Shown here: one piece after another, positions 13,755 to 16,790 of the stretch | How the letters are laid out: every line of letters starts with the position of its first letter | Numbering within the stretch: the first letter of the stretch is position 1 | NCBI GenBank assembly: GCA_951406725.2 | Contig: OX597815.1 | Location: 7,812,001 to 7,876,000 of the forward strand | DNA from: Octopus vulgaris | Taxonomy: Eukaryota | Length of the DNA: 64,000 nucleotides | Direction of reading: 5' to 3' | Notes under the pieces: model-generated | What the model was told of the DNA's origin: nothing | Seen by the model: only the letters and a program-made list of their open reading frames with translations | Database searches by the model: none | Translations under genes and position numbers: made by a program

Positions 13755-14147
13755 TCTTTTATTCTTTTAGTTGTTTCGGTCATTTGACTGCGGCCATGCT
13801 GGAGCAACGCCTTTTGTCGTGCAAATCGACCCCAGGACTTATTCATTGTAAGCTTAGTACTTATGCTATCGATTCCTTTTGCCGAACCACTAAGTTACGG
13901 GGACGTAAACACACCAGCATCGGTTATCAAACCATGTTGGGGGACAAACACCGACACACAAATATATACACACACACACACACACATACATATATATACA
14001 CATATATACAACAAGCTTCTTTCAGTTTCCGTCTACCAAATCCACTCACAAGGCTTTGGTCGGCCCGGGGCTATAGTAGAAGACACTTGCCCAAGGTGCC
14101 ACGCAGTGGGACTAAACCCGGAACCATGTGGTTGGTAAGCAAGCTAC
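13755..14147 (-). mobile_element. SINE family A, head cut by a retroposon insertion
   Basis: Matches the family up to ggtaagcaagctac; the expected ttaccacacagcc is replaced by the element starting at 14148. Confidence 0.9.
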
Positions 14148-15629
14148 TTTATTTTCAAAAAAGTTTCCAGAAAGGCATGATACAGAGTAGCTTGTGGGCT
14201 GGACAGAAACATTGATGAGATGAATGATGAAATAAAATGATATTAATGGGAGAAGACAAAAAACGCCCCCCGTTTTATGCTTCTCTAAAACATTATTTTT
14301 TACACAAAAAACAAACCGAGGTATTGAACCTCTTACTTCCGTTTTTACAATTATTGGACTTAATAGTCCATTTACAAATTAAAACATTATTATTTTTTAC
14401 GCAAAAACAAAACGTGGTATTGAACATCTTACTTCCGTTTTTACAATTTTTGGACTTTATAGTCCATTTACAAATTGTGGCTTTTCAACCTCTTACAACA
14501 TTATAACACTGGCTTTTCAACCTCTTGTCAATTTTCCTCCCCAGCATCGCTTGTGCCCGTATACTCTACCATCATCCACGCCTCGTTTAAAACCAAGGCG
14601 GGCTCCGAGTCGGCGTCGCCCGGCCACAAGCGATATTCCTCTTTGAGTCCCTCCAGCCTACGTATCACGGGCAACGTTATGGCCTCCACAGCTATCTGCA
14701 GAGGCCATTCGGGTTCCCGTGTGAAAGTTAAAGGTATTCCCTTATAGTGTTTTTCCACCACCTTTTCTACCTCTCCACCTCTGTAGAAGAAGATCAATAA
14801 TTTGTTTTCCTTCGGGGTCGAGGTAGTCAATTCTACCGCTGGCGGCACAATTCCCGCCAACAGTGTGTCTTCCTCTACCGGTGGCATAACCGACGAGGTT
14901 CCGGGATATTCCGGTACTATGACCTTGTTTGTCCTCTCTGTGTTTAGCCCCTTGTGGGTAGAAAAAGAAATAGGTACTATGTCACCGACTGCCGGCAATG
15001 TCCCGTTTTTCTTCCTCTTTTTCATTTTTTCTTCTCAACTGGCGGACCGGGAGATTCGCCTCCCCTCCCTCATCCCTAGGATGCTTCTGTGAGCACCCAT
15101 TATTGCTCACCTTCTTCCTCTTGCGGCCCTTCCTTCAGGATTCCTACTCCAACTCGGCCGCCTTCGTTCCTTCTTCTACAGAAGTCTCCATCAACTGCTC
15201 CAGGACTTTGTTTTGTTCCTGAGGACAGATTTTCTTTATATGGCCAGGCTCCAGGCACCGACGACGCCTGGCCATCCTCAAAAAATCTGGAAGTACCAGA
15301 TTATCGGCTGACTGGGTCCACAGGGTCAAAACTACCTTCGACCCCACCCAATCAGCCAATTGGTATCGAGACATGCCCACCAAAACAACAATTGTCACAG
15401 CTAAGTGAGTCACTCGGCGCGACCGCAACAGACAAATGTCTAAAACCCAGTGAGGATTTCTTATTCGAGAAAAAGAAAACAATATAAAAAAATAGAAATT
15501 CCGCACCGAATCCCTAAAAAGACAGATGCCTACCTTGCAGTCGCGCTTTCAACGGTTCTTTAATTTAAGACGGCTTCCAAGCACGTCTTGACAGTGTTCA
15601 CTCTGACAAACTCACGCATGCGTAAGCGA
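14148..15629 (-). mobile_element. ORF1-only non-LTR retroposon (Tx1/L1-like, non-autonomous), copy 1
   Basis: 5' leader; ORF1 remnants 15506-15144 (CLEPGHIKKICP, a partial gag knuckle) and 15025-14528; ~380-bp 3'UTR ending in AATAAA; 14-bp TSD at 14134-14147 and 15630-15643 with one mismatch; no RT or endonuclease. Confidence 0.75.
14922..14972 (+). mobile_element. 51-bp SINE B tail insertion with a 9-bp TSD
   Basis: ccttgtttgtcctctctgtgtttagccccttgtgggtagaaaaagaaata flanked by GGTACTATG (14913-14921 and 14973-14981). Confidence 0.85.
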
Positions 15630-15643
15630 GGTAAGAAAGCTAC

Positions 15644-16790
15644 TTTATTTCATAAAATTTGCCATGACGGCATTACAAAGTGTAGCTTGCGGGCTGGAGA
15701 GAAACATCAATGAAATGTAGGATGAAAAGAAGCTGAATAAAAATGATATTGATGGGAGAAGACGAAAAACGCCCACCGATCTTTTGCTTCTCTAATACAT
15801 TATTCTTTTTTAAAAAACAAAATAAGGTATTAAGCATCTTACTTTAGTTTATTACAAACTAGCACTATGATCCGGCAACGCCGGGTCATAGTGCTAGTGC
15901 ATGGATATACAGCTGCGTGCGTGCGCACATACACGCGAGTAGTGTCAAAATCCTCGACCAATCACATACAGCTAGCTGGCATTCAATTGGCGTATCAAGT
16001 TTCGGGCATTTTGATTGGGTTTTGGTTAGAAAATTCACAAAAAAAGTCACTTCTGTTGATTTTTTAATGGTTTTGTGGGGTGACTTGGGAAATGTAAAGA
16101 TGTGCACGGCCACCCTTGGACGGTTTTGAATGACCATAGAAAGTGTGAGCCCTCTAACTGAAAAATTGTGGATTTGTATAAAGGACACACACACAGACAG
16201 ACATTTTGTCGTTTATATATATAGAGATGTTTTTTTTTGTCTTTAAAAAGAACACACAAAAATGAGGCAATAAACCTCTTACACAGACTGAGACGCCAAG
16301 TCTCTTCAATCATCCCCTATCGATTCTCTTGCAGCCTGCAGGCAATCCCTCAGCCGCAAGTCGGGGCACCAAAACATATAATTGTAATCTTCTTTCGAAC
16401 AGGACTCCACTATTCGAAGGAACTCTCTCTCTTTCACCACCAGCGCCACCACCTGCGACGGCCAATGCTGATGATCAGTACGGGCCGAGTCCATTAGGTC
16501 CTGACCATCAAGACAGCTCTCAACAAAGTTGTTAAAAACCCATCCCCAAAGATAGAATACCACGTATTCTTTACTTTCACTAGGAGGGGCCATAGCTTCC
16601 TCTGTCGCTGGCACGATTCCCACCAAAGAGGCCTCGGGACATGTTGGCAGTACACTGCACACCTCCGACACTGTACCGTTCTTTTTTTTTTCTTTTTTAT
16701 CTTTGGTGCGGGAGGGATTGGCTCCTTCGCCCCAACCGCAGGAACCTCGCTTCCTCCCGCAACCCCGGGAAACCCTCGGAGAACAACCAT
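15644..16790 (-). mobile_element. ORF1-only retroposon, divergent copy 2 (5'-truncated, interrupted by a Helitron)
   Basis: 3'UTR 15644-15857 aligns with 14148-14350; the ORF ending at 16306 shares LxGIVP, FYxxG, WPxQ and YxxW in order with the copy 1 ORF, preceded by a frameshifted KKKKNGT-like block. Confidence 0.7.
15859..16227 (-). mobile_element. Non-autonomous Helitron
   Basis: Minus strand A|TCTCTATATATATAAAC...TGTCTGTCTG 5' end; hairpin plus CTAG|T 3' end; no TSD. Confidence 0.85.

What the first reader, a model, noticed from the sequence alone, without database searches (positions are those of the whole stretch)
14134..16790. ORF1-only retroposon lineage inserted in tandem at one site in a SINE head
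Seen: two minus-strand elements, each with an ORF whose stop is followed directly by a homologous 3'UTR ending in AATAAA, and each joined to the same target GTAGCTT(G/T)CTTACC from the SINE A head. Copy 1 (1482 bp) has a 14-bp TSD and a partial gag knuckle (C-x4-H-x4-C). Neither copy has RT or endonuclease sequence. The two proteins share only short motifs (LxGIVP, WPxQ, a basic KKNGT-like block), yet the architecture is the same. Known: HAL1 elements are ORF1-only L1 derivatives, and Tx1-clade LINEs are often sequence-specific (U2, 5S, tRNA arrays, microsatellites). Inference: an old non-autonomous ORF1-only family that borrows a site-specific ORF2p and uses an abundant SINE as a safe harbour. 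I do not know of a description of such a family.
Basis: partly seen in the sequence, partly recalled or inferred. Interest (0 to 1): 0.8.

Follow-up and report, generated by a model that had tools for sequence, protein, structure and literature searches.

The report
Half-LINE retroposons nesting in SINE heads
Two decayed copies of a multi-copy jumping element, probably from an octopus, that keeps only its RNA-packaging gene sit head-to-tail at one exact spot inside another small repeat, which suggests a freeloading retroposon family that borrows a site-specific enzyme and hides in junk DNA.

Summary
The core observation holds. Copy 1 (14148-15629) lies between a 14-bp duplication of a SINE-head sequence. 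Copy 2 ends on the left duplicate and shares the 3' tail (82% of ungapped columns).

The ORFs are more broken than stated. Copy 1 has two stops, a frameshift, two deletions and a 60-bp SINE insertion. Copy 2 has lost its 5' half and carries a ~370-bp repeat inside its 3'UTR.

An Octopus sinensis protein matches the N-half; look-alike clusters suggest an RNA-binding plus CCHC ORF1. In four public runs the family is multi-copy. All 8 listed contigs covering the tail run on into the same SINE site, and 5 of 6 covering the stop run into the UTR with no ORF2. The listing is a small, biased sample.

Best reading (0.62): a non-autonomous ORF1-only LINE family, probably Tx1-derived, mobilised in trans by an unseen site-specific ORF2p. 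It combines two known traits: ORF1-only structure (HAL1, HeT-A, TRE5-A.2) and targeting of another transposon (Tx1-Mar/SINEU). Nine literature searches found no description of it; Repbase and Dfam could not be checked. Partner, clade and genome-wide specificity remain untested. New variant of a known kind.

The parts
13755..14147 (-). Host SINE ('SINE A'), body downstream of the insertion site; its first 25 nt (with the A box) are missing from this locus
   Evidence: BLASTN to many window copies; intact heads; the 13755 end is read by eye
14134..14147 (-). Right TSD copy = SINE head nt 26-39, between A box (nt 12-22) and B box (nt 55-65)
14148..15629 (-). Copy 1, 1482 bp, TSD-bounded, internally deleted and decayed
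14148..14350 (-). Copy 1 terminal 3'UTR, shared with copy 2, ending GAAAATAAA
14286..14476 (-). 96-bp tandem unit x1.9 in the 3'UTR; other copies also carry it, some apparently with more units
   Evidence: (piece X6-26 spans both units; joint 14379->14286)
14528..15034 (-). Copy 1 ORF1 C-terminal half: basic run, proline-rich linker, ~90-aa conserved terminal region of unknown fold
   Evidence: no database hit
14914..14975 (+). 60-bp secondary insertion of the tail of another SINE ('SINE C'), with a 9-bp duplication; adds 20 in-frame codons
   Evidence: the empty form is seen in 4 of 4 runs (joint 14914->14975)
15042..15356 (-). Copy 1 ORF1 middle part, matching P0001 residues 146-265 (53% identity, tblastn E 6e-29), with two stops and a 13-codon deletion
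15225..15266 (-). Zinc knuckle; first Cys lost in this copy, present in most other copies laid here
15357..15629 (-). Copy 1 5' region (UTR-like), joined by a deletion to about ORF1 codon 146
   Evidence: other copies cover it (piece X1-5; 10-14 contigs per run at 15503)
15630..15643 (-). Left TSD copy, sandwiched between copy 2's tail and copy 1's head
15644..15857 (-). Copy 2 terminal 3'UTR, ending GAAATAAA
15858..16229 (+). Unrelated, very abundant repeat inserted in copy 2's 3'UTR; 19-bp hairpin at one end
   Evidence: I6; empty form in 3 of 4 runs (joint 15858->16263)
16230..16305 (-). Copy 2 stop-proximal 3'UTR (76 nt)
16306..16800 (-). Copy 2 ORF1 C-terminal half (open, ~163 codons); 5' part lost
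16803..16899 (+). Fragment of the 3' half of SINE A, opposite strand, abutting copy 2's broken 5' end
16895..17163 (+). Repeat piece in inverted orientation; its first 47 bp match copy 1's 5' region 15360-15404 (40 of 47); possibly 5'UTR of a sister lineage (inference)
   Evidence: pieces X1-8, X5-24
21507..21765 (+). Independent SINE A head with a full-length SINE C (21530-21750) inserted at the same site, with only a 2-4 nt duplication

Best explanation
A non-autonomous, ORF1-only non-LTR retroposon family of an octopus genome, with at least two old lineages, most likely derived from a Tx1/L1-type LINE by loss of ORF2. Steps: (1) The element is transcribed and makes ORF1p, an RNA-binding plus CCHC-knuckle protein with a basic run and an extra C-terminal region, which coats its own RNA [architecture partly shown; role inferred from TRE5-A cis preference, PMC3159450]. 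(2) An ORF2p from an autonomous relative recognises the conserved ~200-nt 3' tail in trans [inferred; tail conservation shown]. (3) That endonuclease nicks the SINE A head at TAA|GTAGC, primes reverse transcription there, and cuts the other strand ~14 nt away, giving the TSD [junctions and TSD shown; enzyme inferred]. (4) The downstream target is regenerated, so a second element inserted into the same site: copy 2 first, copy 1 second, head to tail with one TSD between them [shown by anatomy]. (5) Both copies then decayed and were hit by other repeats [shown].
For: TSD and target anatomy. One insertion landing on a given base of the ~13 SINE heads in 64 kb by chance is ~1e-4. Multi-copy: 64-94 distinct contigs per run carry another letter at 14700, 22-40 at 14170, in 4 of 4 runs (table 3). 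3' flank: 8 of the 32 listed pieces cover the tail end and all 8 run on into SINE A; 5 of 8 have 31 or more letters on the SINE side; they carry 27-52 other letters over 227-398 nt, and four are distinct contigs of one run (X6-25 to -28). Pieces over copy 2 that may be the same locus differ by only 8-13 letters in ~270 (X1-7, X5-23, X6-32). No ORF2: 6 listed pieces cover copy 1's stop and 5 bridge it by 31 or more letters into the UTR (X2-10, X2-11, X5-19, X6-29, X6-30). Joints 15858->16263 (3 of 4 runs), 14336->16255 (X1) and 14293->14586 (X5, X6) also put the tail next to the ORF end. Coding capacity was kept in the family: of 16 listed variant sites inside the ORFs, one removes a stop and one restores the first knuckle Cys in most other copies; 5 of the 6 sites in the P0001-covered part agree with P0001. 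Between lineages, identity by codon position is 47/62/36% over 91 codons (the alignment was made on the proteins, so this is biased). The tail (82%) is far more conserved than ORF1 DNA. ORF1 identity: P0001 (O. sinensis XP_029652367) E 1e-22; its look-alikes are zf-CCHC, RRM and RBD_ZCCHC3 clusters at scores 0.89-0.93.
Against: No autonomous partner was seen and no genome was available. The contig table shows 32 of 557,964 pieces, chosen as the longest matches, which favours pieces that bridge junctions. All 24 loose ends shown (of 4,065) are at SINE borders, so copies with other flanks or with ORF2 would be invisible. Piece X1-2 leaves the reference 15 nt after the stop with 40 unaligned letters, X2-11 has 25 unaligned letters on the UTR side, and X5-20 has 27 on the stop side of 14620; what follows is unknown. 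No single contig spans ORF to SINE. Three of the 8 tail pieces (X1-1, X5-18, X6-28) may be one locus seen in three runs. Tx1 placement rests on ORF1 architecture and behaviour only; structure matches were TM<0.5. SINE C sits at the same site, so the site may be a general hot spot. P0001 ends at the basic run and lacks the C-half. The tail shows no significant fold (z -0.25 and -0.71).
Confidence: 0.62

Rival explanations
1. An ordinary two-ORF, site-specific Tx1-like LINE. The ORF2-less forms are a minority of dead deletion products, and the family proper is autonomous.
For: Copy 1 is deletion-prone: two internal deletions against P0001. A few pieces leave the reference near the stop (X1-2, X2-11, X5-20). 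L1-Tx1 is expanded in coleoids (PMC8967140, passages). The loose-end table could not show ORF2 continuations.
Against: Two lineages only ~36% identical in the C-half both have stop-to-tail adjacency. 5 of 6 listed pieces bridge the stop into the UTR in divergent copies, and three further joints show adjacency.
Confidence: 0.16
2. An ORF1-only family, but the SINE A site is a general hot spot (a loose RGTA nick preference, or open Pol III chromatin) used by several retroposons; the preference is weak, not family-specific. A variant: the ancestral target is a real tRNA gene and the SINE head is a look-alike.
For: SINE C lies at the same position of another SINE A head. Of 7 SINE C tail ends in the window, 5 are followed directly by AGTA or GGTA. 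Both tails end in GAAATA(A). Dada transposons target tRNA genes around the A box and anticodon (PMC8869645, passages).
Against: 8 of 8 listed tail pieces run into this exact flank (biased sample). The SINE C insertion has only a 2-4 nt duplication, not 14, and another SINE C sits elsewhere in a SINE A body (12869-13103).
Confidence: 0.12
3. Hitchhiking: one ancestral insertion created an element-plus-SINE-A-body composite that was amplified through the SINE's own tail, so the shared flank does not reflect repeated targeting.
For: All listed contigs show only the 3' junction. No contig shows SINE head plus TSD plus element 5' end, and the window locus lacks the SINE's 5' 25 nt.
Against: Copy 1 sits between two copies of the 14-mer, and only 14 nt of SINE separate it from copy 2, a different lineage. 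That needs at least one precise second insertion. The same argument was made for tandem SINEU-3 (PMC4494074, section 14).
Confidence: 0.07
4. Not LINE-derived: processed copies of a host CCHC/RRM gene, or chance juxtaposition of junk.
For: P0001 is annotated as an uncharacterised host gene with three accessions. Some look-alikes are ZCCHC3-like.
Against: Tens of divergent contigs per run, two lineages, a precise repeated target and a TSD.
Confidence: 0.03

Closest known systems
HAL1 (half-L1) of mammals
   Same: Non-autonomous LINE derivative encoding only ORF1p; arose several times (PMC5753468, passages).
   Different: ORF1 here looks like the RNA-binding plus CCHC type rather than the mammalian coiled-coil type (type names recalled); insertion here is at a fixed site with a 14-bp TSD and no poly(A) run.
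TRE5-A.2 of Dictyostelium
   Same: ORF1-retaining deletion derivative, mobilised in trans by the ORF2p of TRE5-A.1, needs its 3' module, targets Pol III loci; ORF1p acts in cis (PMC3159450, passages).
   Different: TRE5-A lands ~50 bp upstream of tRNA genes by ORF1p-TFIIIB tethering. This element lands at a fixed base inside a SINE head, between the A and B boxes. No tethering was tested.
Tx1-Mar / SINEU-3 of crocodilians; Tx1L in Tx1D of Xenopus
   Same: Tx1-clade targeting of another abundant transposon; non-autonomous passenger with a 16-bp TSD; tandem copies sandwiching a TSD (PMC4494074, passages and sections 14-15).
   Different: There the targets are DNA transposons, LTR elements, RNA genes or microsatellites and the passenger is non-coding. 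Here the target is a tRNA-type SINE head and the passenger kept ORF1.
HeT-A and other ORF1-only telomeric elements of Drosophila
   Same: ORF1-only, head-to-tail arrays, borrowed RT; ORF2 lost repeatedly and ORF1-only lineages give rise to new ones (PMC5537684; 10.1101/2025.06.09.658640; passages).
   Different: Jockey clade, added at chromosome ends without a sequence target or TSD; here an internal, sequence-defined site.

Membership tests
Non-LTR retroposon (TPRT product) | TSD of variable length, A-rich 3' end, no LTR or TIR | tested here: met
   14-bp TSD, AATAAA end; no terminal repeats among those listed
ORF1-only non-autonomous LINE (HAL1-type architecture) | ORF1 homolog present | tested here: met
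   P0001 match E 1e-22; knuckle; zf-CCHC/RRM look-alikes
ORF1-only non-autonomous LINE (HAL1-type architecture) | No ORF2 between ORF1 and the 3' tail, in multiple independent copies | tested here: met
   Both window copies; 5 of 6 listed pieces and 3 joints. Small, biased sample.
ORF1-only non-autonomous LINE (HAL1-type architecture) | The ORF2-less form is the amplified unit (majority of full-length copies) | tested here: inconclusive
   No genome held; contig listing has no usable denominator
HAL1 proper | Derived from mammalian L1 ORF1 | tested here: not met
   No L1 ORF1 Pfam family or solved L1 ORF1p structure matched P0001; it carries a CCHC knuckle
Tx1 clade | RT/APE phylogeny within Tx1 | not testable with these tools
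   No ORF2 in the element; partner not retrievable
Tx1 clade | ORF1 with RNA-binding domains plus CCHC knuckle (feature recalled) | tested here: inconclusive
   Feature hits 0.89-0.93, structure TM<0.5; own model pLDDT 38. The same architecture occurs in other clades (recalled).
Target-specific family (more than 20% of flanks in one repeat; criterion in PMC4494074) | Share of 3' flanks in the target | tested here: inconclusive
   2 of 2 window copies and 8 of 8 listed pieces, but the listing is biased to long matches
TRE5-type Pol III-tethered elements | Fixed distance upstream of a Pol III gene; ORF1p-TFIIIB binding | tested here: not met
   Insertion is inside the head at nt 26; binding was not tested
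tRNA-derived SINE head (target) | A box and B box at tRNA-like spacing | tested here: met
   A box in 5 of 6 and B box in 6 of 6 intact heads; ARAGORN and Rfam gave no tRNA call

The most novel reading that the evidence does not exclude
A long-lived, diversified ORF1-only retroposon clade whose lineages (ORF1 C-halves ~36% identical) keep or re-capture one 3' tail (82% identical) to parasitise a single site-specific ORF2p. It inserts to the base between the A and B boxes of the genome's commonest SINE, splitting its Pol III promoter. Its ORF1p carries an undescribed C-terminal region that may tether to Pol III factors on SINE heads. The same ORF2p also mobilises SINE C, which shares the GAAATA end and the nick site: a LINE / half-LINE / SINE guild nesting in SINE heads.
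Probability: 0.22. Interest if true: 0.75.

Novelty: new variant of a known kind. Interest (0 to 1): 0.5.

Why it matters
It would add tRNA-SINE heads to the targets of sequence-specific LINE endonucleases; the targets named in the passages I read were RNA genes, microsatellites, satellites, telomeric repeats, DNA transposons and LTR elements. It would also give an ORF1-only lineage outside telomeres that lasted long enough to diversify. That makes an open question testable: why do some non-autonomous elements keep ORF1 (cis packaging or targeting)? It points to an uncharacterised site-specific ORF2p in cephalopods, and it bears on repeat annotation and gene models in octopus (LOC115225585 looks like an element copy). 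If the partner is a plain Tx1 already in Repbase, the value falls to a curation note.

Tried and rejected
No whole genome was held, so the genome-wide BLAST could not be run.

Pattern scans found nothing: tail 24-mer in metagenome and viral contigs, junction 20-mer in metagenome contigs, SINE 24-mer in viral contigs.

The C-terminal half had no homolog: word-index search of longer proteins, 0 of 1035 candidates; phmmer on 1.84 billion representatives, 0 hits; ESM Atlas, no usable hit; Pfam, none. P0001 found only itself among 684 candidates and no solved relative (best E 0.73).

Both AlphaFold models were unusable (pLDDT 38 and 35); the Foldseek search of the first gave no E<=0.001.

The tail showed no significant RNA fold. 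Rfam gave only low-complexity hits below gathering scores.

Summed contig depth over the ORF C-half was about 1.0-1.8 times that over the two tails together in all four runs. This would suit an ORF1-only family, but the tool states that depth cannot rank parts or give copy number, so it is not counted.

No RNA holder was listed; this is no evidence on expression.

Simple twin priming for the inverted piece 16895-17163 was rejected: a SINE fragment lies between, there is no SINE head or TSD beyond it, and it has no match to P0001. Tandem duplication as the origin of the pair was rejected: the ORF C-half DNA gave only a 31-column local match.

A recalled link between ZCCHC3 and Tx1 ORF1 was not confirmed and is not used. 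Four look-ups of earlier scan findings returned nothing.
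Full report
OBSERVATION. On the minus strand the locus reads: broken copy 2 (about 16800 to 15644), a 14-mer (15643-15630), copy 1 (15629-14148, 1482 bp), the 14-mer again (14147-14134), then the body of an abundant SINE, here called SINE A. The two 14-mers differ at one base. Intact SINE A heads in the window read GGCTGTGTGGTAA|GTAGCTTGCTTACC|AACC, with an A box at nt 12-22 in 5 of 6 and a B box at about nt 55-65 in 6 of 6 heads examined. 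The 14-mer is therefore SINE nt 26-39, not part of the element's tail. The motif search gave 20 matches at up to 3 mismatches against 6.5 expected; the seven with 0-1 mismatch are all in SINE A heads or at these junctions. The tails of the two copies are 82% identical over 201 ungapped columns.

Copy 1's coding region is a wreck: two stops, a frameshift near 15030, and a 60-bp insertion of another SINE's tail whose empty form occurs in 4 of 4 runs. Against P0001 it lacks about 145 N-terminal codons and 13 codons before the knuckle. Copy 2 has a ~370-bp unrelated repeat in its 3'UTR (empty form in 3 of 4 runs) and no 5' end. It abuts an opposite-strand SINE fragment and then an inverted piece (16895-17163) that shares 40 of 47 bases with copy 1's 5' region exactly up to copy 1's deletion point. 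The SINE's first 25 nt are not at this locus.

THE PROTEIN. The middle part of copy 1 found one relative among 382 candidates: P0001, an uncharacterised 281-aa Octopus sinensis protein, E 1e-22. This is the basis for calling the host an octopus; the SINE identities (OR1/OR2/OK) are recalled and were not tested. P0001's nearest Atlas clusters carry zf-CCHC, RRM_1 and RBD_ZCCHC3 families at feature scores 0.89-0.93; structure matches were all TM<0.5. I read this as the RNA-binding plus knuckle ORF1 of non-mammalian LINEs (type recalled). The C-halves of the two copies are real homologs (SW 71, 0 of 5000 shuffles) with 33 of 91 residues identical, but they match nothing in any library searched, and P0001 stops before them.

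OTHER COPIES. No genome was held. I laid Logan contigs of 4 of the 24 listed runs, carrying four different organism codes, on 14060-17180 at 80% likeness. The element is multi-copy: 64-94 contigs per run carry another letter at 14700, 22-40 at 14170, 10-14 at 15503 and 6-13 at 16533. Of 32 listed pieces (out of 557,964), 8 cover the tail end and all 8 continue into SINE A; 5 have 31 or more letters on the SINE side, four are distinct contigs of one run, and three may be one locus seen in three runs. They carry 27-52 other letters over 227-398 nt, whereas three pieces over copy 2 differ by only 8-13 in about 270, so the tail pieces are most likely other loci. Six pieces cover copy 1's stop; five bridge it into the UTR by 31 or more letters, and one leaves after 15 nt. 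Three joints also put the tail next to the ORF end. Of the 40 variant rows shown (of 1,034), 16 lie in the ORFs: 15 change the residue, as expected for private decay of these copies; one removes a stop and one restores the first knuckle Cys in most other copies, and 5 of 6 in the P0001-covered part agree with P0001. Limits: the listing favours long matches, all 24 loose ends shown (of 4,065) are SINE borders, and no contig spans ORF to SINE. These data show presence, not proportion.

THE SITE IS SHARED. At 21507-21765 a full-length second SINE (SINE C) sits in another SINE A head at the same position, with a 2-4 nt duplication. Of 7 SINE C tail ends in the window, 5 are followed directly by AGTA or GGTA: three in its own head (tandem arrays), one in copy 1's ORF, one at the SINE A site. 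Both tails end in GAAATA(A). This may mean a shared ORF2p, as with SINEU and Tx1-Mar, or a loose hot spot. The window cannot decide.

MECHANISM. Shown: target, TSD, tandem order, multi-copy status, ORF1-to-tail adjacency in other copies, a conserved tail against a diverged ORF1. Inferred: transcription, cis packaging by ORF1p, recognition of the tail in trans by a partner ORF2p, staggered cuts ~14 nt apart, and re-use of the regenerated site (copy 2 first, copy 1 second). I give this 0.62; an autonomous LINE with minority deletion products 0.16; a general hot spot or tRNA-gene look-alike 0.12; hitchhiking 0.07; host retrogene or chance 0.03.

COMPARISON. It works like TRE5-A.2 (ORF1 kept, ORF2 in trans, 3' module needed, Pol III loci; PMC3159450, passages) and like SINEU-3/Tx1-Mar (targets an abundant transposon, 16-bp TSD, tandem copies sandwiching a TSD; PMC4494074, passages plus sections 14 and 15 in full). 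It shares ORF1-only structure with HAL1 (PMC5753468, passages) and with HeT-A-like elements, about 40% of Drosophila telomeric families (PMC5537684 and 10.1101/2025.06.09.658640, passages). It is not HAL1 proper and not TRE5-type; Tx1 membership is untestable without RT. L1-Tx1 is expanded in coleoids (PMC8967140, passages). Also seen as passages: PMC3747384 (tail recognition), PMC8869645, PMC4758252, PMC10351740; PMC12129022 returned no passages. Bao and Jurka 2010 and Ohshima and Okada 1994 were seen only as reference entries.

NOVELTY. Nine full-text searches listed no paper whose title, abstract start or read passages describe an ORF1-only family in cephalopods or a LINE targeting a SINE head. 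The library lacks most subscription journals, I read no supplements (figures S3-S5 of PMC4494074 list Tx1 targets), and Repbase and Dfam were out of reach, so a database entry may exist. Verdict: a real feature and a new variant of a known kind; interest 0.5, rising to about 0.75 if genome-wide specificity, a shared partner and a targeting role for the ORF1 C-terminal region are shown.

Noticed in passing
window 21507-21765 (+): Full-length SINE C inserted in a SINE A head at the same site as the ORF1-only element, with a 2-4 nt duplication.
   Followed up: partly
window 58282-58838 (-) and 62679-63226 (+): Tandem SINE C arrays in which each tail is followed by nt ~46-47 of the next unit (GAAATA|GGTATTT), as if SINE C inserts into its own head.
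   Followed up: partly
window 12869-13103 (-): SINE C inserted in the body of a SINE A, in opposite orientation, at a different position.
   Followed up: no
window 15858-16229: Very abundant ~370-bp repeat with a 19-bp hairpin at one end and ATATAGAGAT at the other; resembles a non-autonomous Helitron/Helentron-type element (recalled, not tested).
   Followed up: no
window 16895-17163 (+): Unexplained repeat piece present in other copies; shares 47 bp with copy 1's 5' region up to copy 1's deletion point; no match to P0001.
   Followed up: partly
window 1995-3991 (+) and 35978-36553 (+): Long open frames (429, 370 and 192 aa) whose motifs look like Helitron Rep/PIF1-helicase fragments (recognised from memory).
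   Followed up: no
window 29334-30387 (+): FVDD-containing RT fragment followed by a 215-aa frame; a decayed LINE of another kind, not linked to the element studied.
   Followed up: no
P0001 (XP_029652367, LOC115225585): An annotated O. sinensis 'gene' that looks like the N-terminal two thirds of this retroposon's ORF1, ending at the basic run where copy 1 is frameshifted.
   Followed up: partly
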